The notes below the pieces were generated by a model. That model searched no databases, was not told the DNA's origin, and saw only the letters and a list, made by a program, of their open reading frames with translations. Below, in pieces: positions 39,153 to 64,000 of a stretch of 64,000 nt of DNA. Numbering within the stretch: the first letter of the stretch is position 1; every line of letters starts with the position of its first letter. Origin of the DNA: an uncultured Chlamydiae bacterium (GTDB lineage Bacteria > Chlamydiota > Chlamydiia > Chlamydiales > SM23-39). The stretch is taken from assembly GCA_963828125.1 (NCBI GenBank), contig CAWHDP010000001.1, forward strand, positions 224,001 to 288,000. The letters run 5' to 3'. Position numbers and translations under genes: made by a program.

Positions 39153-39224
39153 TCCGGGTTAGCTCAGTGGTAGAGCAGTGGACTGTTAATCCATTGGTCG
39201 TATGTTCGAATCATACACCCGGAG
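39153..39224 (+). tRNA. tRNA-Asn (GTT), CCA not encoded
   Basis: Acceptor stem TCCGGGT/ACCCGGA plus G73; D arm GCTCAGTGGTAGAGC; anticodon loop CTGTTAA (GTT at 39185-87); T loop TTCGAAT. Confidence 0.97.
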
Positions 39225-39229
39225 TTTCT
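39181..39229 (+). repeat. attL of element 1 (49-bp direct repeat, copy 1)
   Basis: GACTGTTAATCCATTGGTCGTATGTTCGAATCATACACCCGGAGTTTCT, identical to 52372-52420. Confidence 0.95.
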
Positions 39230-39436
39230 CTATAGAAATTGGGGTCTAAAATCGGTTCAAAAAACCGCCCCCAAACAGTCAAATGCCGTAATCTTGCCGG
39301 AGTACGGAATTTCCTTAAATCACCCAAGCAGGGTGTTGGTTCCGTTAAATCTACGGAAATCATTAGAACATCCTTTTTTACTAGCCAATTTCAAGCGCAT
39401 GGATTGTTACGCCAATTCGCTTGTGAAGGAGTTAAA

Positions 39437-40501
39437 ATGGGTTCGATTCGTCAAAGACCACTGAAAAACGGTGGCGTTCGTTATCAAGCTGAAGTTCGTC
39501 TTAAAGGTCATCCTACTCTTGTTGCCATGTTCGATAGAAAAACCGACGCGAAAAGCTGGGTTCAAAAAGTTGAGACAGATATTCGCAACGGTCGCCATCA
39601 TCTCTATTCTGAAGCCATGCGTCATACTTTCGCAGAAGCTGTGGAACGCTACTGTAAAGAACAGCCCGTAACGATTGCGAAGAAAGGGCATCTTGATTGG
39701 TGGGTCAAGGAAATGGGGGCTATCTACTTACAGGATATACGACCAGCGGTGATTTCCGAAAAAAAACAAAAACTCCTCACTGAGCCGAATCATAAAGGCA
39801 CTATCCGGACCAAGAGCACATGCAATCGTTACTTAGCCACCCTCAGCCATCTGGTGAATATCTGTGTAAAACAGTGGGAGTGGGCGACTGAGAATCCGGT
39901 GAGGAAGATCTCTCGTGAAAAAGAGCCGAGAGAAAGAACCCGCTTTCTCAATCCTCAAGAGCGAAGTCGATTCCTTGAGGCATGCCGTGAAAGTGATAAT
40001 CCCGATCTCTTCGCGTTTGTTGTGCTTCTCCTAAGTACGGGATGCCGATATAACGAGGCGCGATGTCTGAAATGGACTGATGTCGATCTTGCACAAGGAA
40101 AAATCACGATCACAAAATCAAAGAACTCTGATATGCGGTCTCTTCCAATTCGAGGACTGGTTTTGGATTTATTCAGAGATTTGTCAGCAAGGCGTCTATC
40201 GCTTAGTTATGTTTTTCCTGGTCAAGATAAGTCAAAACCTCTGGAATTTCGGAGAGCTCTTAAAACTGCTATTAAACGAGCTGGATTGCAGGGATTCCGC
40301 CCGCACGACTGTCGTCATTCTTATGCGACCGAAATGCTGGCCCAGGGGCTTTCCTTGGGAGAGATTGGCCATCTGTTAGGCCACCGCAGCGTTTCAATGA
40401 CAAGGCGCTATGCCCACCTTGTTGAATCTCGATCTGTAGATGCTGTTGCAAAAATGTCAGAACAAATTTTTCAAGGAGTTGAAAATGGACGAGCAATCTA
40501 A
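39437..40501 (+). CDS. Tyrosine recombinase/integrase (intact)
   Basis: N-terminal arm-binding domain (YQAEVR.KG); catalytic R (GCR), K, HDCRH, LGH, RYAH; AAGGAG RBS. Confidence 0.93.
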   Translation: MGSIRQRPLKNGGVRYQAEVRLKGHPTLVAMFDRKTDAKSWVQKVETDIRNGRHHLYSEAMRHTFAEAVERYCKEQPVTIAKKGHLDWWVKEMGAIYLQDIRPAVISEKKQKLLTEPNHKGTIRTKSTCNRYLATLSHLVNICVKQWEWATENPVRKISREKEPRERTRFLNPQERSRFLEACRESDNPDLFAFVVLLLSTGCRYNEARCLKWTDVDLAQGKITITKSKNSDMRSLPIRGLVLDLFRDLSARRLSLSYVFPGQDKSKPLEFRRALKTAIKRAGLQGFRPHDCRHSYATEMLAQGLSLGEIGHLLGHRSVSMTRRYAHLVESRSVDAVAKMSEQIFQGVENGRAI

Positions 40502-41342
40502 GCCCCCTCATAATTTGGTCTCACTGACTTCTGAGGCGTTTTGGGAAAAACTTGATCAAATACACGATGACATAAGAGAACGTTTTTTTGGATACACATA
40601 TAAAATATTGTCAACGAAAACTCTGAGACGAGATGACAGTAATGAAACGCTTGTAGAGGCTCTTTGTTGTTATGAGGAATGGTACGAAAAAAACAAAGAC
40701 AGTATTTATTTCGAATGTGACAGTGCATGTCATTTTTTAAGATTGGTTCTTGAAAGAAATGCCCCTCTTTTTGGTTATGAAGAAGAAGTCTTCGGTCCAT
40801 TGAACATCAAAAGAGATCGTTCGGGATTGTCGGAGCCGCAGAAAAAGGAGATAGCCTTTCAGGCAGGTGCGCAAGTGCTTTGGTACCTGAAAAAAAGTAA
40901 AATCCCGACAATACAGGAGATGCAAGAATTGTTGCTCAATAAAACCCATCCATTTTTTGAAATTCTAGCAGCAGGAGATCCGAATTTATCTTTTGGCTCA
41001 CGCACTGTTAGTAACTGGATAAGCAAAGTATTTCCAATTCCGCAGGATGCAAGAAGAGGGCGCCCTTCAAAGGTTGCAATTTCTCCGACGGCGTTTGAAT
41101 GCTTGGTCTGTATTCCAGGAATTTTCTCAGAAAGGGGTGCAGTTATTAACTTTTCAATACTTCAATTTGTTTTAACATCTATTTCTCGGTTTTTAGAGAA
41201 GTTGGAATGGACACGAGAACAGATTATTAATTCAGAGATCTTTAAGCTCTATGCGAATCCAGTTCATCCTTTTCTTCGGATTTATAATGCAGTCTGGGTT
41301 CATCAAGTCTTCTTGAAAAATAGCAGTATTTTTACCCCATAA
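40485..41342 (+). CDS. Hypothetical protein, homolog of the IS-disrupted gene in element 2
   Basis: AAGGAG RBS; C-terminal IPG...E.GAV.NF..L..VL shared with 55510-56097. Confidence 0.75.
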   Translation: MDEQSKPPHNLVSLTSEAFWEKLDQIHDDIRERFFGYTYKILSTKTLRRDDSNETLVEALCCYEEWYEKNKDSIYFECDSACHFLRLVLERNAPLFGYEEEVFGPLNIKRDRSGLSEPQKKEIAFQAGAQVLWYLKKSKIPTIQEMQELLLNKTHPFFEILAAGDPNLSFGSRTVSNWISKVFPIPQDARRGRPSKVAISPTAFECLVCIPGIFSERGAVINFSILQFVLTSISRFLEKLEWTREQIINSEIFKLYANPVHPFLRIYNAVWVHQVFLKNSSIFTP

Positions 41343-41466
41343 TTTAGGTGCCATCAACGACGATTATTTAAAATTCTAGATACGTCAATCTAAAGCTGTT
41401 TGGATTTTAAGGAATACTCCGGCAAGAGATTTCCAGAACAAAAAAACGGTTTTAAGGAGACGTATC

Positions 41467-41661
41467 ATGAATCAATTACCTACGCAATACCTAGATAAGA
41501 ACCAAGCTCTTCAAAAATACCCTTTTCTTACAGCGAACATGCTGAAGAACCTTTTGTTTAAAGACATTGGAGGTTTTAGAGGCAAGGTCGTGAGGAAAGT
41601 CGGCCGTCGTGTTTTTTTGGACGAGGTGGCTTTACTGCGTTTCATAGCTGATAGCAAGTGA
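41467..41661 (+). CDS. Small Xis/AlpA-like DNA-binding protein
   Basis: 64 aa, AAGGAG RBS, basic wing RKVGRRVFLD; upstream of the replication gene. Confidence 0.65.
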   Translation: MNQLPTQYLDKNQALQKYPFLTANMLKNLLFKDIGGFRGKVVRKVGRRVFLDEVALLRFIADSK

Positions 41662-41667
41662 GGCACT

Positions 41668-43683
41668 ATGTTAGCAGCTGTAAATGAAAAAGCCGCTGGA
41701 GGGAACCAAGCGGCTGACTCTCGAGAAAAAATCGAAAATTTAGACCTAGATTGTAATGAAAATCTCAATTTTCCGAAACCTGTTTCTAGAGAAGATTCGA
41801 AACAGAAAATGGAATATTTAATCATTCCTAAGACACTGACAGCAAAGAATCAAATAGAAGTGTTCCTTAAGACCGAAAAGAAAAATCTATCGCTCACTTG
41901 GCGAGGGGCAAAGAAATCGTTAAGCGGAGAGTGGCCAAAATCGGAGACGCCTTATTTTAGCATTCAGGAGAGCAGAAAAGTAGACCTACTGAAACTCCTC
42001 AAGAAGGTAAAGATTCCTATAGACGAGATTGAATTGCGCGAATTCATTCCGCCTCCTGAGATCCCAAAATATTTGAAGAAAGCGAATCGAATACAAGAGG
42101 CTGGAAATCAATATAATAAGGCTTTGCAGGAGATCGAATTTAAAGAAGCAGAAGAATTAGAAAATGCTAAGTCTGTGTTTATTACAGAAGATATTTCGGC
42201 CACTGAATATTTGCAGCGTATTGGAGAAATTAAAAATCGATATGCGCCTCAAAAGCAACATTTCCTGGATCTTGCAAATCGGAACTATGAAGCCGCCAAT
42301 GTGGTGCATGAGCAAGGAGAAGAAAGCTTAAAAGCGGGAAACGAAGAGCCAGTAGATCAAAATCAAATTGTTGCAGCATTCAATCAATCATTCGCGATCA
42401 TTGAGGTCCCCCAATTTGGCATTATAGAGTTTGGGAAAGACAAAATTTGGATCCACAAGAAGCGAGATATTTTGGATCGCTTTCAGAATCAGAAAGTCAT
42501 CACTGGTTATATAATCATGGACAATGGGGATTCAAAGGCGATTCATAAAACGAAAGCTGAAATCTGGCTAAGTGCTCTGGATCGAAATACTTATTATACG
42601 ATTGATTTCCGACCGGATCAGTCACCAGGTGAATTTATCGAAAATGGGAAACGGATCTACAACTCTTGGGTAGGTCTTTGTGTCAAACCTAAGAAAGGGA
42701 ACTGTGAATTGTTTAAGAGGCATATGCTAGAGATCATTTGCGCAGGGGATAGGGTTAATTTTGATTACTTATGGAGACTTGTTTCCAATTGGGTTCAGCG
42801 CCCCTGGGAACGCACATGCTCCCCTGTATTTAGAGGGGCTCAGGGAATAGGAAAAGGGGCCTTTACAGAAACGATTGGGAAAATATTTGGCCCTACTTAC
42901 TTTCTTACCAACGAGCATGAGCAGGTTTTTGGAAGGTTCAATGCCGCTATTATGGGGAAAGTACTCCTCCATCTCGATGAAGCGCTTGTTGATGGGGGGC
43001 GTCGATTCATAGGGAAGGTTAAGGGAATCATTACCGGACCTCAGTTTCCAATTGAGATGAAAGGTAGAGATCCAATCTCCATGAATAACCCGAGAAAAAT
43101 GATGATCTCTTCGAATGAGTCTTTCGCTATTCCGGTTGATGCTGATGATCGCAGATTTCTTTTTTTGGATGTGGCTCCCCGTCGGGCTAGAGATATCGAA
43201 TACTTTAAAAATTTATTCCATGAGATCAATAACGGAGGCGTAGAAGCTCTTTTGTACGACTTATTGAATACCGATTTGAAGGGATTTGATCCGATGCAGC
43301 TTCCTCGAGGAGGGCAAAAGTTTGGTTTTGATAATAAAATTGCATCGGCGGGATCATTTCATAAATTCCTTTTCCAGGCTTTCTCTGAAGGAACGTTTAA
43401 CCTTGGAGCTATGGCAGGAAAATGGACGACTGAAATTCGAACAGATCTTCTGTATGATCATTATCTCGATTTTTGCGATCCAAGAAAACTGAGTCCCGTT
43501 ATGGAGGAGGCAGTGGGACGAGAGCTTCAAAAAATGCTCGGGAAGACTGGATTTTCAAAAACAAGAAGAAGATTCGATGGAGGTCCAAAATACGTGTATG
43601 TAGTTCCGGATTTGACAAAATGTAAAGAGGCGTTTGCGGAGGCGTATAAGACAACCTCAACCAATATTTTTTGTGAGGACTGA
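41668..43683 (+). CDS. D5/DUF5906-like SF3 primase-helicase family protein
   Basis: YNSW.G, Walker A GAQGIGKG, Walker B LHLDEA, IEMKG.D, SSN, DDRRF, C-terminal winged helix (LYDHY..FC). Confidence 0.8.
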   Translation: MLAAVNEKAAGGNQAADSREKIENLDLDCNENLNFPKPVSREDSKQKMEYLIIPKTLTAKNQIEVFLKTEKKNLSLTWRGAKKSLSGEWPKSETPYFSIQESRKVDLLKLLKKVKIPIDEIELREFIPPPEIPKYLKKANRIQEAGNQYNKALQEIEFKEAEELENAKSVFITEDISATEYLQRIGEIKNRYAPQKQHFLDLANRNYEAANVVHEQGEESLKAGNEEPVDQNQIVAAFNQSFAIIEVPQFGIIEFGKDKIWIHKKRDILDRFQNQKVITGYIIMDNGDSKAIHKTKAEIWLSALDRNTYYTIDFRPDQSPGEFIENGKRIYNSWVGLCVKPKKGNCELFKRHMLEIICAGDRVNFDYLWRLVSNWVQRPWERTCSPVFRGAQGIGKGAFTETIGKIFGPTYFLTNEHEQVFGRFNAAIMGKVLLHLDEALVDGGRRFIGKVKGIITGPQFPIEMKGRDPISMNNPRKMMISSNESFAIPVDADDRRFLFLDVAPRRARDIEYFKNLFHEINNGGVEALLYDLLNTDLKGFDPMQLPRGGQKFGFDNKIASAGSFHKFLFQAFSEGTFNLGAMAGKWTTEIRTDLLYDHYLDFCDPRKLSPVMEEAVGRELQKMLGKTGFSKTRRRFDGGPKYVYVVPDLTKCKEAFAEAYKTTSTNIFCED

Positions 43684-43725
43684 AATGCCGTTATTTCAGA
43701 ACGATATGACAGTTCTTACTGAACG

Positions 43726-43947
43726 AGGAACAGTAATTGTGATCAGGAACACTTAAGTCACTGATATTAAGGTGCTGTTCTTGGTGTTCCTGGACAAATA
43801 CATGTAAAATGGATTTAGCGATATCGAGGCGTGTTTAAAACCAAATAAGGGTTTGAAAACTGTCTAGGAACACCAAGATCAAGGATTGGTTATTAACACT
43901 TAAGAAAATCTGTATCGGGGAACATCGCTGTTAGGAACTAGGAACAG
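43726..43947. repeat. GGAACA/TGTTCC iteron cluster, putative origin of element 1
   Basis: About 8 GGAACA-like copies in both orientations; 18-bp inverted repeat 43779-43796/43861-43878 with 1 mismatch. Confidence 0.65.
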
Positions 43948-43988
43948 CCGATAGGATCTGGACTATCTTTTGTAGAGTGGGGTTTTTT

Positions 43989-44414
43989 ATGAAAAGCACG
44001 TCAGAAAAACAAAAGTTTATTGAATTGAGAGCAAGAGGTTTGTCGTTTGATAAAATCTCCCAAGAACTCGGCATTTCCAAACCGACTTTGCTGAAGTGGA
44101 GTCAGGATTATGGCAAGGAAATCGCTAACTTGCTCTATTTTCAATTTGAATCAACGCTCACGCAGTTTCGTCTAGAGAAGCGTGCCAGGATTGAATCGAT
44201 GGCGACCATTTTAGCTAAGGCGATAGAGGAGTTGAAATCGAGATCCTTCGAGGAGCTTAGCGCAAAAGAGCTCATGAGCATTGTAGGGTATGCTAGCGAA
44301 AAATTGGAGACAGAGTTTTCCCGAGTGCGATACATCACAGATGAATGCATAGATCCGATGGATAGGATAGAGGATGAAGTCCTTGCCCCTAAAACTTTAC
44401 CATTTCCTTACTAA
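43989..44414 (+). CDS. HTH protein, paralog of 63373-63795
   Basis: FIELRARGLSFDKISQELGISKPTLLKW HTH; ends LAPKTLPFPY. Confidence 0.8.
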   Translation: MKSTSEKQKFIELRARGLSFDKISQELGISKPTLLKWSQDYGKEIANLLYFQFESTLTQFRLEKRARIESMATILAKAIEELKSRSFEELSAKELMSIVGYASEKLETEFSRVRYITDECIDPMDRIEDEVLAPKTLPFPY

Positions 44415-44607: not shown

Positions 44608-44802
44608 ATGCCAAAGAAAGAAACAGAAACTTCCAAAAAAGCCAAGACGACAGTCTACATGACGGAAGAGGAAGAGGTTTTTCTGACTGAATTATTCATT
44701 AAAAGGCTCCGAGAACGTCGGAAAACTGATAAATCAGCTCTTCTATGTGAGGGAATCCGTTTGTTATTTGAAAAGGAAATAGGGAGCATGACTAATGTCT
44801 AA
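44608..44802 (+). CDS. Small putative ribbon-helix-helix regulator
   Basis: KTTVYM beta ribbon plus helices (KSALLCEGI); possible TTGACT-N17-CATCCT promoter at 44554-44582. Confidence 0.5.
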   Translation: MPKKETETSKKAKTTVYMTEEEEVFLTELFIKRLRERRKTDKSALLCEGIRLLFEKEIGSMTNV

Positions 44803-45853
44803 GAAGCCCGAAAGCATATTGAATGAGCCAGCTGTCCACGGCGATTCCTCTAGTGAATACACTTCAACCTTACAGACAATTGTCAGTAAGATAGAGGTTG
44901 CTCAAACAAGAGCGATAAAGGCCGTAAACGTCGAATTGGTCTCGATTTATAGAGATATCGGCCAGATCATCCATGAAAAACAAGAGACCGCGGGTTGGGG
45001 AGCATCCATCGTGGAGCGGCTCGCAACTGATTTAAGAAATTTCTTTCCAAAAACCAAGGGGTTCTCCTCTCGTAACTTATGGATTATGAGAGACTTATAC
45101 GTTTCCTATCGGGATCATGAAAAACTGCAGACACTGTCTGCAGAAATTAGCTGGTCTCACAATGTGGCTATCTTATCGAAATGCCAAGATCGCCTAGAAC
45201 GAGAGTTTTATATACGCATGTCCAAGAGGAATGCTTGGAGTTATCGCGCCCTTTTGAACTACATAGAGAGTAAAACGTATGAAAGGACGATGGCCAGCCA
45301 AGAAAATTTTGAGGCCAACCTTCCAAAAAAAATGACTCCTGAAGCCAAATTGGCAATGAAGGACGAATATTCGTTTGATTTTTTAGAGCTTGGAGAGGAA
45401 CACACGGAACGTGAGCTGGAGCGTGCGGTTGGCAAGAACATAGAATTGTTTTTGCGAGAGGTTGGTAATGCCTACACCTTCGTAGGATCTCAATATCGTC
45501 TTGAAATAGATGGGCAAGAATTTTTTATCGACCTTCTCCTATATCACCGCAAGCTTAAATCATTAGTAGCGATTGAGTTGAAAGTGGGCCCCTTTATTCC
45601 CGAACATGTTGGGAAAATGCAATTTTATCTGGCCGTGCTCAATGACACTGTCCGCCTTGCTGATGAAAACCCATCGATTGGGATCATCCTATGCAGAGAA
45701 AAAAGCAGACTGATTGTTGAGTATGCTCTTAAAGACAGCAATAAACCCATTAACGTCGCTGCCTACAAAACTGTAACGACTTTGCCGAAAGAGTTTAAGG
45801 ATGAGCTACCGTCGCCGGATCAAATAGCACTTTTACTCGAACACATCAATTAA
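44795..45853 (+). CDS. YhcG/DUF1016 PD-(D/E)XK nuclease family protein
   Basis: GFS.RNL..MR, ISWSHN, KD.Y.FDFL, FIDLL.YHR.L..L.AIELK, GKMQFY. Confidence 0.9.
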   Translation: MSKKPESILNEPAVHGDSSSEYTSTLQTIVSKIEVAQTRAIKAVNVELVSIYRDIGQIIHEKQETAGWGASIVERLATDLRNFFPKTKGFSSRNLWIMRDLYVSYRDHEKLQTLSAEISWSHNVAILSKCQDRLEREFYIRMSKRNAWSYRALLNYIESKTYERTMASQENFEANLPKKMTPEAKLAMKDEYSFDFLELGEEHTERELERAVGKNIELFLREVGNAYTFVGSQYRLEIDGQEFFIDLLLYHRKLKSLVAIELKVGPFIPEHVGKMQFYLAVLNDTVRLADENPSIGIILCREKSRLIVEYALKDSNKPINVAAYKTVTTLPKEFKDELPSPDQIALLLEHIN

Positions 45854-45869
45854 CAGAAGACTTTCGATT

Positions 45870-47069
45870 ATGTTTGAATCAATTGTTGTAACCGCAAGAA
45901 ATTCTTTCGAATATTCCAAGCCTTTGGATATTGGTTCTTTAGTCGAAAGTATGTTTTTTTATGGAAAAAGTACACTCGTGGCTAACTACGTGATGCTCGA
46001 TCAGCTGTATCAATATTTTGGTGGGGAATATCTATACAGATTGCTGAGCGAAGAATTTCTAAATATTGTTTATTTGGAGTCGACAGTAGGCATTCGAACT
46101 GATAAACAAAACGAAATAGACTATCACAATATTATCCAGTTTAATTCACCTCAACACCAGTTCCAAGATAAATTGAGAGAACTCTGCATTAGCGCGAGCG
46201 GGAAAAAGGGCGCTGCACGAAGGCTTGCTCAGAGACTTGAAAGATATATTAGCGTGAGCAGGGAGACGCCTAAAGTATTAGAAGGGGCAAAAGAATCCAT
46301 TCTCAATCAAAGATACACGGAGTCTTCTGCTAGAATAATTCTTAAGGAATTAGTCCCAAATTTAGAATTAAATGAAATAGGCATTTTTAAGACTCATCAA
46401 GAAAGAGATGGGATCGTTTTAGAGACAGATATCAATTTTTCCAAGGTGAATGAAGTATATCATCAAAGAGTGTCTCCGTCTGACTCAACGATTACCCCTG
46501 CATTTATCCTTGCCCATATACTCAAACTTGAAGAGGAGTTGTTTTTTGCCTCTTCACATTTATCGGAATTGTGTTGCAGCGACTTAAGCTCTCAGTTGGG
46601 TATGAATAAAATTGATTACCTAATGGAAAGGAGCGCTAAGAGTAGCCGGAACCTTCAGAATTTTAACGAGATTGTTTTCAACGATGTGAAGACCATCCGA
46701 GAAGCAGTGAATGCAAATCAAGTCGATTTAGCGGATTTATTTAAAGCGCTTGAGCAATCACGAAAGTTTAAAAAGTGGCTTCATGGTCTGCCTCCTGATG
46801 CGCATTTATTCAAAAGCTATCATGAAGAAATTACGCGTGAATCTTTCCTTCAAAAACTCCCTGGCAAAGCCATCCGCTATTCCGTTTTTGCGAGCCTTGG
46901 GTTATTAGCCGATGCGTGCCTTCCGAAAACTAAAGCAGTTCTAACAGCTCTATCTCTTGGTGCATTTGATACATTTTTTCTCGATAGATTTGCTCTGGGG
47001 TGGAAACCCAATCAATACGTTGAGGGGAGTTTGAGAAAATTGGTTAGGGAAAAAGAGAGTAAACGTTGA
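45870..47069 (+). CDS. Hypothetical protein (399 aa)
   Basis: Long AT-rich ORF; no motif recognised. Confidence 0.7.
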   Translation: MFESIVVTARNSFEYSKPLDIGSLVESMFFYGKSTLVANYVMLDQLYQYFGGEYLYRLLSEEFLNIVYLESTVGIRTDKQNEIDYHNIIQFNSPQHQFQDKLRELCISASGKKGAARRLAQRLERYISVSRETPKVLEGAKESILNQRYTESSARIILKELVPNLELNEIGIFKTHQERDGIVLETDINFSKVNEVYHQRVSPSDSTITPAFILAHILKLEEELFFASSHLSELCCSDLSSQLGMNKIDYLMERSAKSSRNLQNFNEIVFNDVKTIREAVNANQVDLADLFKALEQSRKFKKWLHGLPPDAHLFKSYHEEITRESFLQKLPGKAIRYSVFASLGLLADACLPKTKAVLTALSLGAFDTFFLDRFALGWKPNQYVEGSLRKLVREKESKR

Positions 47070-48470: not shown

Positions 48471-48504
48471 GAATCCATACTATTCTGAAAAATAAGAGAA
48501 TCGA

Positions 48505-49359
48505 ATGAAACACACTGACTATATCGAAGTTGACGGCTTTAAATTCCGATACCTCACAGAAGGACATGGCCCTGACACACTGGTTATCGGTAGCTCCCTC
48601 TATTACTCGCGTAGCTTTTCTCAAAATCTCCGAAAGTCTTTGCGATTGCATTTCATTGATCATCGCGGGTTTGCAGAGCCCCCTACTCATGGAATCAATG
48701 AGGTATCATCTTTTGATGTGCTTCTAGATGATATCGAACAAATAAGACAAAAACTCTCTCTGAAAAAATGTATCGTCATTGGACATTCCGCCAATGGTCG
48801 ATTGGCTCTTGAATACGCCAAAAAATATAAAGAACATGTGTCTCATGTTGTGATGATTGGTACGCCACCAAATATGGGGCTAGACAATCTTGCAATGGCC
48901 GCGTGTAATTGGGATGAATCAGTTTGGCCAGAAAGAAAAGCCGCGTTTGAGCAAAACATGAAGATTTTCTCAAATGAAGAGCTCGGCAAGCTGCCTCGGG
49001 ATCAGCAATTCTCTAAAATGAACGCTCGCAATGCTCCCAAAAACTGGTACGACTATTGTTTTGACTCAAGCTTCCTTTGGCAGGGGGTAAAACCCAATAT
49101 CAAGATCCTTGATCAAATACATCTTCAATTTGGACGTGAGATTGATATTTCAAAAGAGCTAGAGTCGCTGGATTGTCCTGTCATGGTAGTCTATGGTCGT
49201 TTTGATTTTGCTGTTCCACCAGTACAATCTTGGGATTCTTTCCGTTCCAAGTTCAAGGATCTAACCGTCCGTATTTTTGAAAGAAGCGCTCATAGTCCTC
49301 ACTATGAGGAAGCGAGCCTTTTCGATGAGGAGTTACTAAAATGGGTAAGGAGAACATGA
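48505..49359 (+). CDS. Alpha/beta hydrolase (proline iminopeptidase-like)
   Basis: DHRG, GHSxxG nucleophile, GRFD, SAHSPH. Confidence 0.8.
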   Translation: MKHTDYIEVDGFKFRYLTEGHGPDTLVIGSSLYYSRSFSQNLRKSLRLHFIDHRGFAEPPTHGINEVSSFDVLLDDIEQIRQKLSLKKCIVIGHSANGRLALEYAKKYKEHVSHVVMIGTPPNMGLDNLAMAACNWDESVWPERKAAFEQNMKIFSNEELGKLPRDQQFSKMNARNAPKNWYDYCFDSSFLWQGVKPNIKILDQIHLQFGREIDISKELESLDCPVMVVYGRFDFAVPPVQSWDSFRSKFKDLTVRIFERSAHSPHYEEASLFDEELLKWVRRT

Positions 49360-50366: not shown

Positions 50367-50433
50367 AATTCATCGCTTTAGATGTTTTTATTTCAATCTA
50401 TATAGCATGTAGTTAAGGGCAGAATAGATCGAT

Positions 50434-53853: not shown

Positions 53854-54128
53854 TAACTCGATGGATTTTTTTAAAAACAATCTCGAAAGACCGTATTGGG
53901 ATATTTACGAAGCTGGCTGGCTTATTTCTGGGATAAATAGGTTTGGCCTCTTTATTAATGTAGTTGAAAACAATGCGATAGTTCACAAGCTTGGTGTTCC
54001 TCTGGAAATAGAAGATCGCGTGCGAGAAAATGCGCTGAGGTGTGTTTCAAAGATATTTAAAAAAATTTTAGAACAGACGGAGATGTTATCTGGGTTTGAT
54101 TCCTCGATAAAAATAGTCAGGCTGCTTG

Positions 54129-55428: not shown

Positions 55429-56231
55429 AGGCTGCTTGGTGCCTATAGGCGCGATGAAATTACAAAAAAAAATCTCATTCTGGAAAACCACGCCTATCTA
55501 ATACCTCCAATGAAAGCCTTAGCTATAGCAGCTACTGAAGGCGTTGTCTTCCCTAGGGAAATTCAAATTGCCTCTGGCGTGTATCAAGATCCAAGAACCG
55601 AAAAAGATAGTCTTACCTGCGGTATTGTCAATACATTGCGGCGATCCGTGGTGTCGCAGTTATTTTGGTATCACAATCCAAGAATGAATATTTCCCAAAT
55701 TTGTCGTGAAATAAGTCGGGTTAGAGACGCTGCGCCCCCTGAATTAAAAAATTATTTAAGTTTTCTTAACGATAGCAAAATGCGGTCGCGGGTAGATGTA
55801 AAAAAAACCACGCCAGTGAGCGACTCTAGCCTTCCGGTTATTCCCGGGGTCATGCGAGAGGAGAAAGGTGCGGTCTTGTTGAATTTTCCTCAGCTAAAAG
55901 TTGTCCTGTCCACACTCGCTTACCTCCTTTCGATCAGGAAAGTGAAGACTTCTTTGGAGTTAATTCATCACCCTCTCGTGGCAATGTACAACCGAAATAA
56001 TAGTCGTACTATCGATTATATTATTAAGTTCTGTTTGCAAAATTACATACATTATTTCGATGAAATCGATTTCTTGGAGAAACAGAAGAAGGATTAAAAA
56101 TTCTTCCCTTATCCATTTTTGACGTTAGGGCAACAAAAAGTGGAGAATTTTCAGTTGTGGGATTTTTGTGTATATAATTCATAACGGCGCAGAACTCTTT
56201 CAAGCGCTGCCTTAAAATGTAGGAAAATTTT

Positions 56232-56587: not shown

Positions 56588-58117
56588 ATGATGTCTACCA
56601 CTTTAACTAACGATACCATTGATAGCAATGGTCAACAATCGAACTTCTCGCGCTCCGAGGCTGATGCTAGGAAGTCCTATGCCGAAGCACAAAACGCACG
56701 CCCAGCCCAGCCAATCCCTCTCAAAAAAGAAACGCCGCCGCCAGAGCCTTACCCATTCGAAGCCTTGGGGCCTATCCTTGGCCCAGCTGCGAGGTGCGTT
56801 CATGAAACCGTAATGGCTCCCGATGCAATCTGTGGACAATCATTTTTGGCAGCAGCTGCGTTAATGGCTCAACCCCACGTTGATATTTTTATTGACGGAC
56901 GTTCCTTCCCTTCTTCTCTCTACTTCATGACTATCTGCGAGACCGGCAGTCGCAAAAGCGCAGCGGATAACTATGCGATGAGGCCCATTGAGACTTACCA
57001 GAAAGCTACATATTCCGACTATCGCCAGAAGCTTGCGACCTATAAAAACGATTACGCCGCATGGAGGAAACAGTGGGAAAAGGCCGTTAAAGATGAAGAT
57101 TCCAAGAAGCTTAAAACCCTTGTGGAGCCCACAGCACCCATATACCCGATGATTATTTGCGAGGAGCCAACCTATCAAGGACTCATTCACGGATTACATC
57201 TCGGGCAGCCAAGCCAAGGGATTTTTTCCGATGAAGCGGGACGAATGATCGGCGGCCACGCAATGAACAGCGACAACTGGCTTATGACTATCAGTGGGCT
57301 AAGCAGTCTTTGGGACGGCAAGCCCATTACTCGTGTTCGTCGGGGAGATGGCAAGGCGGACGAGAGCTACATCCTATATGGGAGGCGGATTTCCGCACAT
57401 CTGATGATGCAGCCTATAGTTTTGCGGTCGATTCAGAAAAACAGGGCATTTTACGAACAGGGATTCATGGCAAGATTCCTTGTCGCATCACCCGATTCTC
57501 TTGCAGGAAGTCGAGCCTATCAGGAGCTAGATGTGACAGATTTTCCTGAGTTTATTAATTATTTGAATCGGTCTTCTCAAATTCTGAATATGAAATTTCC
57601 AGTGAAGAAAGACGATGAACCAAACCAGCTTTCCCCACCCAAGATTTCTCTGTCTCCTGAGGCGAAGAGATGCTGGATGTCGTTTTACAACGAGATAGAA
57701 CGGTCTCTCGGAGCAGATGGAAAGCATCGGCCTGTTCAGGGAATGGCTTGTAAGGCCGCAGATATGGCCTCACGTATTGCTAGCGTAATTGAATTTTTTC
57801 CTAACTATGAAACGCAAGCGATTTCGCTTGAAAATCTCGAGAGGGCGACCATTCTGGAGAAATGGTACCTCCGTGAAGCGTTGCGGATCGAAGAGACCGA
57901 AGCTGTTGATCAAGAGACGGAGAACGCCTCTAAAAAACTGATGTGGATGCAGAGAAAAGTTTCTGAAGGTGGATCACCCGTCTTCACTCTGCGGCAGCTT
58001 TGTCGCGATGGTGCCAACCCTCGCTCTGCGAAAGATGTTCGTAGACTGATGTCGGTCTTGATGGATCATCGTTATCTTAGTTCGAAGTCTAGAGATGAAT
58101 GGACGCTCGAGGGATAA
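56588..58117 (+). CDS. YfjI/DUF3987 family P-loop protein (putative replication helicase)
   Basis: YPFEAL, TG.RKS, EPTYQGL, SDEAG, LWDG..I...R, MMQP, GFMARFL. Confidence 0.8.
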   Translation: MMSTTLTNDTIDSNGQQSNFSRSEADARKSYAEAQNARPAQPIPLKKETPPPEPYPFEALGPILGPAARCVHETVMAPDAICGQSFLAAAALMAQPHVDIFIDGRSFPSSLYFMTICETGSRKSAADNYAMRPIETYQKATYSDYRQKLATYKNDYAAWRKQWEKAVKDEDSKKLKTLVEPTAPIYPMIICEEPTYQGLIHGLHLGQPSQGIFSDEAGRMIGGHAMNSDNWLMTISGLSSLWDGKPITRVRRGDGKADESYILYGRRISAHLMMQPIVLRSIQKNRAFYEQGFMARFLVASPDSLAGSRAYQELDVTDFPEFINYLNRSSQILNMKFPVKKDDEPNQLSPPKISLSPEAKRCWMSFYNEIERSLGADGKHRPVQGMACKAADMASRIASVIEFFPNYETQAISLENLERATILEKWYLREALRIEETEAVDQETENASKKLMWMQRKVSEGGSPVFTLRQLCRDGANPRSAKDVRRLMSVLMDHRYLSSKSRDEWTLEG

Positions 58118-58154
58118 CAGTGGACAGCCGATTTGAGTTTTCTCCTTGGGGGCG

Positions 58155-58367
58155 TGCGACAAATGCGACAAAGGCAAAAATCGAATTTAACATTTTATCT
58201 GTAAGTTTGTTAAGTGTCGCACGTGCTCATTGCGACAGTATGCGACAGTATGCGACGAAATCCACTCCACACATTTTGTCGCATAACTGTCGCATAACCA
58301 TATGCGACACCATAAACATTGAGGAAGAGTAGGTTATGGAATTTGTCGCATTGTCGCATCTGTCGCA
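58155..58367. repeat. TGCGACA/TGTCGCA iteron array (12 copies), putative origin of element 2
   Basis: Direct copies at 58155, 58164, 58231, 58241, 58251 (variant) and 58303; inverted copies at 58215, 58277, 58288, 58344, 58352 and 58361. Confidence 0.8.
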
Positions 58368-58381
58368 TAGGGGGGTGAAGC

Positions 58382-59389
58382 ATGGATTTGCTTATTCTAG
58401 TTTCTGAGGCAGGTTTGAACCCAAAAAAAATGGCCTCAACCAAAGGCGGAGAATATCATTCCCCTTGCCCGTCTTGCGGCGGAGATGACCGATTCATGTT
58501 TTGGCCTAATACGGGGCGATATTATTGCCGACAATGTAAGCGGCAGGGCGACCCGATTCAGTTTTGCAGGGACTTTCTTGGCATGACCTTCAAAGAGGCA
58601 AAGGATAGGGTGGGCGTTCCCGATAATGGGCGATATGAACGCGTTCAAGAGTTCGAAATTCAGGCGATCAAAGCTCCGACCAGATCTTGGCAGGAAAAGG
58701 CTAATGAGTTCGTAGAAAGCTGTTCTAAACGGCTTCTGATCGATCCTGAAGCCATGGAGTTCATTAAAAACAAATACGGCCTAACACCTGATACGATTTC
58801 TCGCTTCCGCATCGGTTGGAATCCTGAGAAGAAATTTCACAGAAAGTCCGATTGGGGGATTCAGGAGACCGAAAATAGAAAATGGATATGTCTTCCCAAG
58901 GGAATCATCATCCCTTCATTTTGTAGCGCTGCAAGGGTATCCAAAATTAAAATCCGTCGAGAGGAGTGGATTGATGGGGATCAGTACGGAAAGTACCAAG
59001 AAATCGAAGGTAGCTCAAACCAGACCCCTATTTATGGGTTGTGGATGAATGAAGTGGCAATGATCGTCGAGAGCGAATTGGATGCGATGTGTCTTTGCCA
59101 GGAAGTGGGGGAATTTTGTACCTGTGTGGCATTAGGTGGGGCGGCAAAAAGACCAGATGCTATGACCGCCGAATGGTTGAAAACAAGGCGGCTCATTCTT
59201 TACAGCCTGGATTTCGACGACGCTGGCGACAAGGAATATCGCTATTGGGCTTCTACCTTCTCTCAGCTGGGTCGATGGCGTTCCAATTCTCATAAATCTC
59301 CTGCCGATTCTTTTGTATTAGGGGGTGTGATTCTAAAAGATTGGTTCCTCGCGGGTATTGAATTTTGGGAGACGCACAAAAATGGTTAG
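58382..59389 (+). CDS. P4 alpha-type Zn-ribbon plus TOPRIM primase
   Basis: HSPCPSCGGDDRF...YCRQC..GD; IVESELDA; LDFDDAG. Confidence 0.82.
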   Translation: MDLLILVSEAGLNPKKMASTKGGEYHSPCPSCGGDDRFMFWPNTGRYYCRQCKRQGDPIQFCRDFLGMTFKEAKDRVGVPDNGRYERVQEFEIQAIKAPTRSWQEKANEFVESCSKRLLIDPEAMEFIKNKYGLTPDTISRFRIGWNPEKKFHRKSDWGIQETENRKWICLPKGIIIPSFCSAARVSKIKIRREEWIDGDQYGKYQEIEGSSNQTPIYGLWMNEVAMIVESELDAMCLCQEVGEFCTCVALGGAAKRPDAMTAEWLKTRRLILYSLDFDDAGDKEYRYWASTFSQLGRWRSNSHKSPADSFVLGGVILKDWFLAGIEFWETHKNG

Positions 59390-60972
59390 CCTCCGCTCGT
59401 ACCAAACCGAATGCCTCGAAGCGATCCACAATGCGAAAGCGCGCGGGATCGCTAGACCCCTAGTCTCGATGGCAACTGGGTTGGGAAAGACGCTTGTCTT
59501 CTCCGCCCTGGCCAAAGAAATGAACCGGCGTACACTCATTGTGGCTCACCGCGATGAATTGATTCGACAGGCTATAGATAAGCTCCAACTGGTTTGGCCC
59601 GAGTCTAGCCCCCTTATCGGGGTTGTCAAAGGAGAGCTTCATCAACCGGACAGCCATATCGTCGTCGCTTCTATTCAATCTGCATCAAGAGAGGGAAGGA
59701 TCATCGACTTGAAGCGGGCGGGGTTCGATTTGCTCATCATTGACGAAGCCCATCATGCCGCCGCACCAACGTACGAACGATTGATTCGTGATCTTGGGTT
59801 TCTTGATAATTCCACAGGTAAGCTTTTGCTCGGAGTGACGGCAACGCCAAAAAGAGGCGATGGGGTCGGACTCTCTTCGATTTTTCAAGAGATCGTCTTC
59901 AGTCGCAGTATTGCGTGGGGGATAAAATCCGGGTATCTCTCTCCTTTGATTGGGCGCAGAATTTCAACTCGCCTGTCCTTGAATGGTGTGCAGACGCAAG
60001 CCGGTGATTTCGTTGCTGCTCAGTTATCTAGGGCTATCAACATACCTGGGCGCAATAAGCTGATCGTTGAGTCCTATGTTCGTTATGCCTCAGATAGGAT
60101 GAAAACGATCGCATTCTGCGCTGACGTAAAGCATTCGCAAGATTTAGCTGAGGCATTTAGAAAAGCCGGAATCTCTTCGGTGGCTATTCATGGTGGAATG
60201 GAAATTGACGAGCGGCGCCATGTCCTCAGTCTGTTTGAGGGCGGAGAAATACGAGTCATTACAAATTGCGCGGTTTTAACTGAAGGATTTGATTCCCCAC
60301 TGGTTGACTCTATTTTGCTTTGCCGACCAACCAAAAGCGAGGGTCTCTATGTTCAGAGTGTGGGACGAGGGACTAGAGTATCTCCCGGGAAAGAAAGATT
60401 GCCTCGTTATCGATTTCGTCGACGCGAGCCGTCATAGCTTGTGTAGCTTTCAAAATTCGTTGGAAGGAGTGCTTGAAGTTCATCAAGAGGACAAGAAAAA
60501 GAAGGCTGACGATCCTGAAGAGCAGATCGCTGTTATTGATGAGCCATGTGGCGCACTGTTTGAGGCTGCGGATGTTCAGGAGATCGACTTTTTCGGACGC
60601 TCGGCCTTCGCTTGGGTTCAGGTCGGCGATACTTGGCATTTGCCTGTAGGGGATCGGCGTGATATTTGGGTGCGTCAGGTTTCAGCTCACGGCTATCGCG
60701 TTGTCTTAAATGATGAGCGACGGGCCGTGCCTCTTACCGAAAGGGAGCTGCCGCTCGCATACGCGCTTGGCGTTGCCGAGGATTGGGTACGCGCTCAAAA
60801 GGTTGATGTCCTCGTGCGAAAGGACGCGTCATGGCGCAGCGATCCAGCTTCGGAAAAACAGATCGCCGCTTTATTGAAATTCGGAATGACCAGTCCCGCC
60901 GGTCTAACCAAAGGAGCGGCTTCAGAACTCTTGCAAGAGAAGTTTTCCAGTCAGAGAGCCGTGAATCGCTAA
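59382..60972 (+). pseudogene. SF2 DEAH helicase (IRC3/RadD-like) with a frameshift near 60385
   Basis: LRSYQ, ATGLGKT, DEAHH, TATP, TEGFD, Q.VGRG.R; continuation PGKKDCLVIDFVD is in the +1 frame at TCTCCCGGGAAAG. Confidence 0.8.
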
Positions 60973-61101: not shown

Positions 61102-61479
61102 TCAAGCGTGCAATCTTTTTAGATTTGTGTTCTTCGTGACATGAATCGATGGAATGCTCGCCTTCCCCAAAGTTGGTTTGATCTCAAGATCGCATCCCAG
61201 GCTAATCAGATAATTCATTAATCTCTCGATTGTAAACTCTGATAACAGACCTCTCACAATCCTTGAAACCTTTGGCTGGTCTATCTTCATTAATTTCGCA
61301 GCCTGTGCTTGAGTTAGCTTTCGTTTTTTAATGATCGCTCTAAGCAATAGAGCAAGATCAGATTTTGCATTTGCTTCTTTGGGATTTTTAAATCCAAAAT
61401 CGGCAAATACATTCCCCGAACCAACTTCGTATTCAATGTTCTCAGGAACAGATTCTTTAATTTCTTTTCTTTTTTCCAT
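61102..61479 (-). CDS. HigA-like XRE/HTH antitoxin
   Basis: GSGNVFADFG, LTQAQAA..M.IDQPKVS; start overlaps the toxin end. Confidence 0.85.
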   Translation of the reverse strand: MEKRKEIKESVPENIEYEVGSGNVFADFGFKNPKEANAKSDLALLLRAIIKKRKLTQAQAAKLMKIDQPKVSRIVRGLLSEFTIERLMNYLISLGCDLEIKPTLGKASIPSIHVTKNTNLKRLHA

Positions 61480-61837
61480 AACGCTCCTTATAAATTTGAT
61501 CTGCCCACTTGATCCTTTGCTCAATCAATTCTTTATCTTCTTTTGGCACTTCTGATCCCTTTTTGCTTTTTTTCTGAAAAATGTGGATCACAAAAACCAC
61601 TTCCCTATAGCGTACTGTGTACACCTCTCTAAATGTAGAATTACGATAATCGCCTACCACTTCAAAAACACCGCTCCCATGATGCCTGTATGGTTTCGCA
61701 TCTTCGTGCGTTTCTCCATTGAGAGCTAGCTTCAAGGCGGTTGAAAATAGATCTTTTACCTCTTGTGGCAGCTTCTCAGCATCCTTCTTTGAAGACCCCA
61801 GGTAAATCAGGTCTCTGTTTTTTTTAGGGTCGCTCAT
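61457..61837 (-). CDS. RelE/HigB (Gp49-like) toxin
   Basis: GVFEV, TFR.VY.V....V.V.H.FQKKSK.G; toxin-first order. Confidence 0.85.
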   Translation of the reverse strand: MSDPKKNRDLIYLGSSKKDAEKLPQEVKDLFSTALKLALNGETHEDAKPYRHHGSGVFEVVGDYRNSTFREVYTVRYREVVFVIHIFQKKSKKGSEVPKEDKELIEQRIKWADQIYKERYGKKKRN

Positions 61838-62328: not shown

Positions 62329-63087
62329 ATGCGTGAGCTAACAATAAACGACGAATTCAGGAATCTTTTGCCACAGCTGTCAGATGATGAATTTTCTGCT
62401 CTGGAAAAGAATATCGTAGACGAGGGGGGGATACACAGTCCTATCATCGTTTGGAACAATACCATTATCGATGGTCATAACCGCTATGCGATATGTACGA
62501 AAAATAATATAAAATTTCACACGGAAGAAAGACGATTCAGCAATGAAGGAGAGGTTAAGATATGGATCATTCGCAACCAATTTGCAAGGCGGAATATCAA
62601 TAGATTTGTGCGAGGTGAGCTGGCTCTGAAGCTCAAGAATGAGCTGGCGAATATTGGAAAGCAACACATGGCAGATGGTTTGGAGAATTCTACAAACCTA
62701 GATACTCGCCTAGAGATCGCGAAAACAGCGAATGTATCAGATAACACTATCCACCGCGTCGAAAAAATCTTGTCGAGCGGTAACGAAGATCTAATCAAAA
62801 AATGTCGCGATGGCGAAGCGACTGTCAATGAGGCATACAAGAGCTTGAAGGCGCCTTCCGACATGGCGCAGTCCGGTGCCGTGCAAACCAATAGTCCTGT
62901 ACCATCAAAAGTGATTGCGAAGCTGCGAAATATAGCCGAAAACGCAAATGAGATCCGCGATGATCTATCAGATGATGACAAAGATGACATTCGATCAGTC
63001 GTGGAGATACTGAACGATGTTGCGCCGCCTCTGGAAGAGGGCGCAAGGCTTGCAGAAACGCCCCTAGAATCAGTTAACGCTGGTTGA
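62329..63087 (+). CDS. ParB/Srx N-terminal domain protein with HTH
   Basis: LLP.LS..EF..L..NI..EG, IIDGHNRY..C, NQ..RRN, EIAKTANVS..TI.R. Confidence 0.8.
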   Translation: MRELTINDEFRNLLPQLSDDEFSALEKNIVDEGGIHSPIIVWNNTIIDGHNRYAICTKNNIKFHTEERRFSNEGEVKIWIIRNQFARRNINRFVRGELALKLKNELANIGKQHMADGLENSTNLDTRLEIAKTANVSDNTIHRVEKILSSGNEDLIKKCRDGEATVNEAYKSLKAPSDMAQSGAVQTNSPVPSKVIAKLRNIAENANEIRDDLSDDDKDDIRSVVEILNDVAPPLEEGARLAETPLESVNAG

Positions 63088-63155
63088 GCAACAGAAGGGA
63101 AAAGGATGATGGATGAGGATCAAATAGACAGTTTTACCATCCTTGAGGTCGGTGA

Positions 63156-63368
63156 ATGGGAAAGAAACGAAAGCTAGCGAATGAAGAGACAGAGAAGCGC
63201 AAAAAGTTGCTAAAGTCATTCAACGAACGGATGAGTCGTTTTCAAAGAGCAATGAAGGGGAATGTTGATGCTCTTGTGGAGTGCATGTACGAAGGCAATA
63301 TGTGCAGCAAAGAGGATTTAAATGATTATTACAATACATCAATAAATCTGGATAAGCCATACCGATAG
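63156..63368 (+). CDS. Small hypothetical protein
   Basis: 70 aa, GAGG RBS, ends 4 nt before the next gene. Confidence 0.5.
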   Translation: MGKKRKLANEETEKRKKLLKSFNERMSRFQRAMKGNVDALVECMYEGNMCSKEDLNDYYNTSINLDKPYR

Positions 63369-63372
63369 TATT

Positions 63373-63795
63373 ATGAAAACGGCAGAAGAAAAGCAAACAT
63401 TCATAGAGATGAGAGCCAAAGGCATCTCGTTCGATAAAATTGCCAAGAAGCTTGAAATTTCGAAGCCCACCCTTTTGAAATGGAATCAGGACTACAACAA
63501 AGAAATTGCAAACCTGCGCTATTTTCAATTTGAATCCATCATTGCTCAGTTTCGGCTTGAACAGGGGGCCAGGGTTGAATCGATGGCCGCGATTTTAAGC
63601 AAGGCTCTGGAAGAGTTGAAATCGAGATCCTTTGAGGGACTCAGCGCAAAGGATCTTCTTAGCATTATTGAGCAGACCGGCGAAAGATTGCGGGGCGAGT
63701 TTTCTGGTGTTCGATACGTTACTGACGAATGGAAAGATCCAGGCAGCCTAGACGATGAAATCCTTGCTCCAAAAACTTTACCGTTTCCTTACTAA
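63373..63795 (+). CDS. HTH protein, paralog of 43989-44414
   Basis: 97 of 141 aligned residues identical by manual count. Confidence 0.8.
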   Translation: MKTAEEKQTFIEMRAKGISFDKIAKKLEISKPTLLKWNQDYNKEIANLRYFQFESIIAQFRLEQGARVESMAAILSKALEELKSRSFEGLSAKDLLSIIEQTGERLRGEFSGVRYVTDEWKDPGSLDDEILAPKTLPFPY

Positions 63796-63832
63796 AAGTT
63801 GACCGAATTTTATCGAAACTGTGAGGAGGGAA

Positions 63833-64000
63833 TCAAACTCCATCCCATTCCGCTCCGTGCTTCAAAAGCAGAGCAATGATTTCGCGATTTCCACCTTCTA
63901 CAGCCATTTTGATCGGAACTTTCCCATTGTCTCCGACGAAGTTGACTGGATGCCCAGCATCTAATAAGACCCTTACTAGTTGAGAGTTGTCATTTTGAAT
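63833..64000 (-). CDS. Ankyrin-repeat protein, C-terminal part (start outside the window)
   Basis: Not in the ORF track. Manual translation ...NSQLVRVLLDAGHPVNFVGDNGKVPIKMAVEGGNREIIALLLKHGAEWDGV*. Confidence 0.75.
   Translation of the reverse strand: MQNDNSQLVRVLLDAGHPVNFVGDNGKVPIKMAVEGGNREIIALLLKHGAEWDGV

What the first reader, a model, noticed from the sequence alone, without database searches (positions are those of the whole stretch)
39181..64000. Two related satellite-like integrative elements in tandem at a chlamydial tRNA-Asn: candidate undescribed element family
Seen: both elements run att > tyrosine integrase > overlapping ~300-aa gene (homologous C-termini) > small GRR-wing Xis-like gene > replication gene > short bidirectional iteron array > (later) a ~140-aa HTH protein, plus different cargo. 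No capsid, tail, relaxase or T4SS genes are in view. Known: an integrase/Xis-AlpA/primase-helicase/ori layout of 10-15 kb is typical of P4-like and PICI phage satellites, and the isolated chlamydial phages I know of are small ssDNA Microviridae. Inference: these are self-replicating, helper-dependent elements, which would imply an unknown dsDNA phage or conjugative helper in environmental chlamydiae.
Basis: partly seen in the sequence, partly recalled or inferred. Interest (0 to 1): 0.8.

Follow-up and report, generated by a model that had tools for sequence, protein, structure and literature searches.

The report
Satellite-like islands of environmental chlamydiae
An environmental chlamydia carries a complete 13-kb mobile island and a broken sister island, both of a design that recurs in many related genomes; they likely spread inside tailed-phage particles, and a cultured chlamydia already carries a predicted complete phage of that kind, so the idea can be tested.

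Summary
The anatomy is real, with corrections. Element 1 (39181-52420) is complete. Element 2 is broken: integrase stop, IS-split ORF, frameshifted helicase. Both belong to a ~54-kb array with eight att copies and no virion or conjugation genes found. The layout is common in chlamydiae: excisionase-like homologues occur in 60 of 301 genomes, with an integrase just upstream in 35 of 39 loci examined. Behind a recognisable primase/helicase, 15 of 21 loci carry one of five interchangeable small genes. Two types match terminase small subunits (TerS); the 140-aa HTH matches only weakly. The helper need not be unknown. The Criblamydia sequanensis plasmid encodes a full head and contractile-tail set, and this genome keeps an 89%-identical terminase remnant of it. 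The elements fit no named family I tested (P4, PICMI, PIME not met; PICI partial), and no paper found by my searches describes them. This scan earlier noted a terminase-carrying sister island on other chlamydial DNA (e1-4632826). Verdict: new variant of a known kind, interest 0.6.

The parts
39153..39224 (+). tRNA-Asn(gtt), integration target
39181..39229 (+). att core 1 (3' part of the tRNA, 49 bp); arm-type pair GCCG(T/G)A lies just downstream
39437..40501 (+). Element 1 tyrosine integrase, intact, with R-H-R-H-Y motifs; 77% identical to the integrase at this genome's tRNA-Phe
40440..41342 (+). ORF300: unnamed family found directly behind the integrase; predicted winged-helix-like core with an RRGRP motif; likely a regulator (inferred)
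41467..41661 (+). Element 1 excisionase/AlpA-like gene (64 aa, GRR wing); no library match
41668..43683 (+). Element 1 replication protein, DUF5906 / P4-primase-family helicase domain; no primase domain recognised
43684..43976 (.). Predicted origin: AGGAAC x6 (5 forward, 1 reverse), 0 of 300 shuffles reach it
43989..44414 (+). HTH140, candidate TerS-like gene (weak match), under purifying selection
44608..44802 (+). Small 64-aa gene (ribbon-helix-helix-like by my reading, no library match); 50% identical to a gene of the Criblamydia plasmid
44795..45853 (+). YhcG/DUF1016 nuclease (PADLOC candidate defence system PDC-S02)
45870..52123 (+). Element 1 cargo: 399-aa unknown, GrpB-phosphotransferase fusion, hydrolase, 341-aa unknown, GNAT, cupin, phosphotransferase
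52372..52420 (+). att core 2: right end of element 1 (matching arm pair upstream) and left end of element 2 (TGGCAC arm pairs downstream)
52711..53853 (+). Element 2 tyrosine integrase, broken by an in-frame stop at 53197-53199; 37% identical to element 1 integrase
53792..56097 (+). Element 2 ORF300-family gene, split by the IS
54129..55428 (+). ISAs1-type insertion sequence (family name from my knowledge of the DDE_Tnp_1/assoc domain pair), 29-bp inverted repeats, 7 near-identical copies in the genome
56232..56501 (+). Element 2 excisionase/AlpA-like gene (89 aa); homologues in 60 of 301 genomes of the order
56588..58117 (+). DUF3987 (YfjI-type) predicted helicase
58118..58381 (.). Predicted origin: TGCGACA x11 in both orientations; a sister element with the same replication genes has the same repeat x11
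58382..59389 (+). DnaG-like primase (zinc ribbon + Toprim)
59358..60972 (+). SF2/ResIII-type helicase in two reading frames
61102..61837 (-). Gp49(RelE-like)/HTH_37 toxin-antitoxin pair
62329..63087 (+). ParB-like gene
63373..63795 (+). Element 2 HTH140 copy

Best explanation
These are tRNA-targeting integrative elements that likely excise, likely replicate from their own origin, and are predicted to travel as PICI-like satellites inside the particles of tailed phages of chlamydiae. Shown: att-bounded structure, an intact integrase in element 1, helicase/primase genes beside repeat arrays, no virion or transfer genes found, and the same layout across the order. Inferred: ORF300 acts as regulator; the small GRR gene drives excision; the circle replicates; the gene behind the origin (HTH140 here, TerS-matching genes in sister elements) redirects a helper terminase to element DNA; transduced copies integrate at the tRNA and pile up into arrays. 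The best candidate helper is the myovirus-like phage-plasmid family typified by the Criblamydia sequanensis plasmid. Element 2 is a stranded relic.
For: Layout: integrase upstream in 35 of 39 Xis loci, with a 190+ aa ORF between in 32. An independent search with ORF300 gave integrase directly upstream in 19 of 19 loci and Xis downstream in 16 of 19. Slot: 15 of 21 loci with a recognisable primase/helicase carry a slot gene within 9 kb, against 0 of 12 loci of the subtype with an unrecognised 350-aa gene. Slot types: m9, 5 of 5 match PHROG terS phrog_2538 (E 8e-13 to 6e-5); m36, 2 of 2 match a terminase PHROG and in L128 it directly precedes a large terminase; HGGxSTG genes, weak terS hits, and a similar-looking gene sits directly before a large terminase in L098; DUF5681. 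HTH140: 18 of 56 members hit phrog_2538 (best 1.6e-5; query residues 1-111, E 0.004); model is HTH + long helix + helix; an Atlas neighbour cluster has 13% Terminase_5; dN 0.16-0.18 vs dS 1.4-2.7. In Bacillaceae it closes an int-repressor-cro-xis-DnaD-DnaC block. Helper: large terminase in 20 of 301 genomes, major capsid in 8 of 301. The C. sequanensis plasmid is annotated with terminase, portal-type, head, DUF2184 capsid, DUF3383, baseplate and spike genes (head genes confirmed on a MAG homologue), and the tail genes are found on 5 of 5 MAG contigs fetched. This genome holds its terminase and pgp7/8-type integrase at 89% identity, and element 1 shares two genes with the plasmid.
Against: HTH140 as TerS is weak: profile comparison 30% probability with m9 and 4% with the phage-plasmid TerS; its HMM finds no m9, m36 or TerS protein at E<0.5; other HTH families match more members than terS does; no real homologue in 50,697 phage records; none of 14 larger genes downstream of it in bacterial loci is a terminase. 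HTH140 also heads serine-recombinase elements with no recognised replication gene in 8 chlamydial loci. DUF5681 and the HGGxSTG partner have no terminase annotation in the libraries. No capsid-remodelling gene. Elements (60 of 301) far outnumber detected helpers (8-20 of 301), and no portal, capsid or tail homologue was found in this genome. No sign of activity in the one well-covered run. Loci were chosen for long contigs and good scores, and kin are not independent.
Confidence: 0.5

Rival explanations
1. Cargo-carrying, tycheposon-like replicating islands without active hijacking. They excise and replicate under stress and move passively (general transduction, vesicles, DNA uptake during co-infection of one amoeba); HTH140 is a regulator or directionality factor.
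For: Half of element 1 is cargo. HTH140 occurs with serine recombinases and no recognised replication gene and has only weak TerS similarity. Cargo tycheposons share integrase-xis-primase/helicase without packaging genes (10.1101/2020.12.28.424599, passages); int+alpA islands can be moved by a jumbo phage (PMC12595487, passages).
Against: Sister elements hold clear TerS matches in the same slot, and the slot tracks the primase/helicase subtype (15 of 21 vs 0 of 12).
Confidence: 0.3
2. Integrative mobilizable elements moved in trans by the F-type conjugation system of environmental chlamydiae, through an unrecognised oriT.
For: TraC in 27 of 301 genomes, more than the capsid marker (8 of 301). 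F-type T4SS on chlamydial plasmids and islands is published (PMC7846284, PMC5010888, passages). PIMEs show that int-alpA-rep elements can depend on plasmids (10.64898/2026.01.12.698999, section 5).
Against: No relaxase, TrbJ/TrbL or other transfer gene among the element ORFs; no TraC or PF03432 relaxase found in this genome and no TraC in 24 genomes of its family; TerS-like slot genes are not expected. No oriT search was possible.
Confidence: 0.13
3. Decayed prophages that kept only their integration and replication genes.
For: Element 2 and most of the array are degenerate and IS-ridden. A few sister elements carry both terminase subunits (L121, L128).
Against: Element 1 has intact ends with matching arm sites. 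The compact layout recurs across many families with different replication modules. HTH140 is under purifying selection. The chlamydial tailed-phage family uses a different, pgp7/8-type integrase.
Confidence: 0.07

Closest known systems
PICIs (SaPI type and Gram-negative type; PMC6092414 and PMC10085698, passages read)
   Same: att-bounded, 10-18 kb, int > regulator > xis/alpA-like > primase/helicase > iteron origin > terS-like gene > accessory genes; no structural or lysis genes found
   Different: No AlpA/MerR/Stl match and no capsid-morphogenesis gene; a conserved unnamed ~300-aa gene follows int; the TerS assignment is weak for HTH140; 'chlamyd' does not occur in the SatelliteFinder main text; induction and packaging untested
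Tycheposons (10.1101/2020.12.28.424599, passages) and VEIMEs (PMC9618062, passages)
   Same: tRNA-specific tyrosine or large serine recombinases, xis, swapped primase/helicase modules, terS-carrying and cargo-carrying forms, growth of tRNA-anchored islands with partial tRNA copies
   Different: Defined in marine bacteria by their own integrase clade or by recovery from virions, neither tested here; these elements combine a terS-like slot with large cargo, which that paper did not see in PICI-like tycheposons
PICMI (PMC10803314, passages)
   Same: int, alpA-like gene and DUF5906 or DUF3987 primase/helicase; no capsid remodelling
   Different: PICMIs integrate at fis, are ~6 kb, single-copy and lack terS; these target tRNAs, are larger and form arrays
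P4-like satellites
   Same: Integrase at a tRNA, P4-primase-family helicase domain, short iterons in both orientations (P4 origin recalled from memory)
   Different: No Psu, Sid, Delta or Ash match
Chlamydial islands Pam100G and PnaK_GI2 (PMC548262 search listing; PMC5010888 passages)
   Same: tRNA-anchored islands in environmental chlamydiae; PnaK_GI2 lies at tRNA-Thr and has a large terminase gene
   Different: Pam100G is a 100-kb T4SS island; neither was described as a recurring element family in what I read

Membership tests
PICI | Integrase and specific att site | tested here: met
PICI | Regulator homologous to AlpA, MerR or Stl | tested here: inconclusive
   Small GRR-wing gene in the right position but no library match; ORF300 has only a winged-helix-like core at Z about 5
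PICI | Primase/replicase module followed by an origin | tested here: met
   function not assayed; element 1 has no recognised primase domain
PICI | Capsid morphogenesis gene (absent in SaPIs) | tested here: not met
   none in Pfam scan of 29 ORFs or PHROG scan of 17 ORFs
PICI | Terminase small subunit | tested here: inconclusive
   weak for HTH140; met in sister elements with m9 or m36
PICI | No phage structural or lysis genes; about 15 kb | tested here: met
   13.2 kb att to att
PICI | Helper-phage-dependent induction and specific packaging | not testable with these tools
   needs experiments
P4-like satellite | Psu, Sid, Delta and Ash genes | tested here: not met
   no such match (that these libraries hold the models is recalled, not checked)
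PICMI | DUF5906 or DUF3987 primase | tested here: met
   definition
PICMI | Integration next to fis, single copy | tested here: not met
   integrated at tRNA-Asn in an array of eight att copies
Tycheposon | tRNA-targeting integrase, xis, primase/helicase | tested here: met
Tycheposon | Integrase in the tycheposon clade and shared hallmark profiles | not tested
   no reference set at hand; the tree holds chlamydial integrases only
PIME / IME | trbJ and trbL, or a relaxase | tested here: not met
PIME / IME | oriT resembling a helper plasmid's | not tested
   no chlamydial oriT known to me
Prophage or ICE | Head and tail genes, or T4SS, inside the element | tested here: not met

The most novel reading that the evidence does not exclude
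Chlamydiae host an undescribed, phylum-wide phage-satellite system. A family of tRNA islands with a new regulator (ORF300) and an exchangeable packaging slot, in which HTH140 is a new satellite-specific TerS class shared with many phyla, parasitises myovirus-like phage-plasmids such as the one in cultured Criblamydia sequanensis, and is a main route of gene flow into these obligate intracellular bacteria.
Probability: 0.3. Interest if true: 0.85.

Novelty: new variant of a known kind. Interest (0 to 1): 0.6.

Why it matters
How obligate intracellular chlamydiae gain genes is an open question; plasmids and an F-type T4SS are the published routes, and the phages isolated from them are Microviridae (PMC5010888, passages). 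This work shows a common, modular element family at their tRNAs and points to a specific tailed phage-plasmid in a cultured species as a candidate carrier, which makes transduction in chlamydiae directly testable. It also yields two unnamed protein families (ORF300, HTH140) that mark such elements, and element-borne integrases and origins that could become genetic tools for environmental chlamydiae. The general design (integrase, excisionase, primase, terS) is well known from other phyla, which limits the surprise.

Tried and rejected
PF03504 search for host identity rang nowhere, controls included, so it is uninformative; identity rests on exact matches of two recalled chlamydial 16S signature primers at two rRNA loci and on named homologues. 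Portal search phrog_146 also rang nowhere; absence of a portal rests. Fold searches for HTH140 gave only generic helical matches; those for ORF300 gave no Foldseek hit and Z up to 5.6; the Atlas gave no usable ORF300 hit. A complex prediction of HTH140 with the large terminase was not available, so binding is untested. The tblastn screen for virion genes in 79 + 40 loci found none but missed the L128 terminase found, so it is insensitive. Iteron arrays were significant in the four G000 cases with clear arrays, not in two other G000 elements, and in only 3 of 27 other loci at 0 of 100 shuffles, with windows placed by guess. No shared DNA pointing to a pac site was found between the island and the plasmid beyond the phosphotransferase gene and chance-level hits. 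No RNA holder listed. Run X3 from another study covers parts of element 1 at depth 2-4, too thin to tell element from host. Contig data cannot exclude rare circles, and a 49-bp repeat may break contigs at a joint. Literature: 10 searches found no description of this family; subscription journals are missing from the library, and I read no supplements (gene tables of PMC7846284 and PMC10085698 may list these genes or elements). Electron-microscope reports of larger phage particles in Neochlamydia are recalled only; one search did not find them.
Full report
Host and locus. The window is G000:C1:224001-288000 of a 2.37-Mb, two-contig genome (95% complete). Two recalled chlamydial 16S signature primers match exactly at two rRNA loci, and the best homologues of its mobile genes are in named chlamydiae. 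tRNA-Asn lies at 39153-39224. Its 3' 44-55 bases recur at window positions 39181, 52372, 67515, 83588, 85058, 87189, 89512 and 92999, so the two elements are the front of a ~54-kb array.

Element 1 (13,191 bp att to att) is complete: intact integrase, ORF300, a 64-aa GRR-wing gene, a DUF5906 helicase, an AGGAAC x6 array (0 of 300 shuffles; 9 of 1578 genome windows reach six copies in both orientations), HTH140, a 64-aa gene, YhcG (PDC-S02) and cargo. Both ends carry the same arm-type pair. Element 2 has the same order with a different integrase (37%), DUF3987 plus DnaG-like primase and TGCGACA x11. It is broken by a stop in int, an IS in ORF300 (334 codons once the IS is left out) and a split helicase. 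Its arm motif recurs only before the att at 92999. Beyond the window lie IS elements, toxin-antitoxin cassettes and a remnant with an HGGxSTG gene; no virion or transfer gene was found in 36 of 46 ORFs scanned.

The family. The genome holds 15 further related integrase copies, whole or broken, mostly at tRNAs or tmRNA, and at least four more elements with this layout. Across 301 genomes of the order, the element 2 small gene has homologues in 60. I fetched 40 of the 83 non-self matches, favouring long contigs; 39 had the ORF called. Of these, 35 have an integrase within 3.2 kb upstream, 32 also a 190+ aa ORF between, 20 a tRNA directly upstream, 21 a recognisable primase/helicase (DUF3987, DUF927, DUF5906/D5, DnaB, AAA_25) and 12 an unrecognised 350-aa gene. 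ORF300 has 232 relatives among cluster representatives, no Pfam family, a confident model (pLDDT 86.6) with a winged-helix-like core (Z 5.6, rmsd 3.4, 70 aligned), and occurs in 22 of 301 genomes, always behind an integrase (19 of 19 loci returned). The two locus sets overlap and are not summed.

The slot behind the replication module. 16 of 39 loci carry one of five small gene types: HGGxSTG plus a ~210-aa partner (7), m9 (5), m36 (2), DUF5681 (2), HTH140 (1); one locus has two. 15 of the 21 primase/helicase loci have one, none of the 12 others. m9 matches terS phrog_2538 in 5 of 5; m36 matches a terminase PHROG and precedes a large terminase in L128. HGGxSTG gives weak terS hits; DUF5681 none. 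HTH140 has 65 homologues and 79 loci were fetched of 152 confirmed: 16 are labelled chlamydial, the rest span Bacillota, Bacteroidota, Patescibacteria, Verrucomicrobiota and others. 41 of 79 have a tyrosine or serine recombinase in the locus (33 of 54 loci of 10 kb or more; no control). It is under purifying selection. Its TerS likeness is weak: 18 of 56 members hit phrog_2538, fewer than hit generic HTH families; hhalign 30% to m9 and 4% to the phage-plasmid TerS; no cross-hit by HMM; no phage homologue; 4 IMG/VR loci, one a truncated copy two genes before a large terminase. In 8 chlamydial loci it heads a MerR-like gene and a large serine recombinase with no recognised replication gene, which fits a regulator as well.

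Candidate helpers. A large terminase is found in 20 of 301 genomes including this one, a phrog_264 capsid in 8, TraC in 27 but in none of 24 genomes of the host's family. This genome's terminase lies in the tRNA-Phe island with a methylase, TerS-position gene, AbiE-like pair and pgp7/8-type integrase, 89% identical to the Criblamydia sequanensis plasmid. That plasmid's annotation lists a full head and contractile-tail set; head genes of a MAG homologue were confirmed by PHROGs, and sheath, tube, baseplate and spike homologues lie on 5 of 5 MAG contigs fetched. G000 has no detected portal, capsid or tail homologue. Element 1 shares its 64-aa gene (50% aa) and a phosphotransferase gene (69% nt) with the plasmid, which suggests shared hosts. 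In print, the plasmid is noted as 7% 'phagic' (PMC4208316, passages) and as carrying a putative prophage with terminase and tail tip genes (PMC7846284, passages); I found no paper calling it a complete phage-plasmid.

Activity. In run X1, which may be the source sample, element 1 has depth 13.0 against 13.3 for the flank, and no circle joint is listed; these are contigs, so rare circles are not excluded.

Mechanism. Shown: structure, conservation, absence of detected autonomy genes, existence of tailed-phage gene sets in chlamydiae. Inferred: regulation by ORF300, excision, replication, packaging through the slot gene, transduction and array growth. I give the satellite reading 0.5, passive cargo islands 0.3, conjugative mobilisation 0.13, decayed prophage 0.07.

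Comparison. It works most like a PICI or terS-carrying tycheposon. By SatelliteFinder's criteria (PMC10085698, passages) it has integrase and replicase, an unmatched regulator and an uncertain terS, the class those authors set aside as incomplete; membership is not established. P4, PICMI and PIME criteria are not met. Papers seen: passages of PMC5862659, PMC7846284, PMC5010888, PMC10085698, PMC12595487, PMC10803314, PMC9618062, PMC6092414, PMC4208316, PMC5654357 and 10.1101/2020.12.28.424599; abstract and section 5 of 10.64898/2026.01.12.698999; PMC548262 as a listing only; no supplements.

Verdict. Real, widespread, apparently undescribed in chlamydiae, of a known general kind; interest 0.6, mainly because a cultured candidate helper makes it testable.

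Noticed in passing
L177/L178 (NZ_LK031773.1); L112-L119, L172-L176; G000 C2:1652238-1660995 (L111): A conserved myovirus-like phage-plasmid family of chlamydiae (terminase 86-95% identical, pgp7/8-type integrase, head and contractile tail genes); G000 keeps only the packaging and integrase part.
   Followed up: partly
L122, L123, L124: P22-like portal and capsid genes on contigs binned with three chlamydial genomes; binning not checked.
   Followed up: no
L022-L028, L037: A second element class: HTH140 > MerR-like 281 aa > ~70 aa > large serine recombinase ending in tRNA-Leu or tRNA-Phe, with no recognised replication gene.
   Followed up: partly
L132-L135, L137, L138, L141, L143, L149-L152: A tight subtype: int > 240-270 aa > xis > 350-aa gene with no Pfam or PHROG match (possible new initiator), with defence-like cargo and no slot gene.
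   Followed up: partly
L002:3600-13050 (window-scale 83588-93053): Four 1.4-3.5 kb units between att copies, mostly toxin-antitoxin pairs, each ending in an arm-like sequence but lacking an integrase: a cassette-like array.
   Followed up: partly
G000 C1:290858-291613 and 308401-309156: 756-bp 99.5% duplicate holding a TA fragment, arm and att, placed directly after an IS end; IS-driven rearrangement or assembly artefact.
   Followed up: no
L121, L128: Elements of this layout that carry both terminase subunits and no detected capsid gene.
   Followed up: partly
L045, L047, L048, L056, L043, L059: HTH140 closes compact int-xis-replication blocks in Bacillaceae, Bacteroidota and Spirochaetota; in L056 it is followed by a clear terS (phrog_6299, E 9e-27).
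   Followed up: partly
L015 (G000 C1:15092-15481): Third, orphan HTH140 copy beside a methylase and a predicted restriction gene, with no integrase nearby.
   Followed up: no
window 47070-48470 and 51224-52123: Two phosphotransferase (APH-family) cargo genes, one fused to GrpB; substrate unknown, resistance not shown.
   Followed up: no
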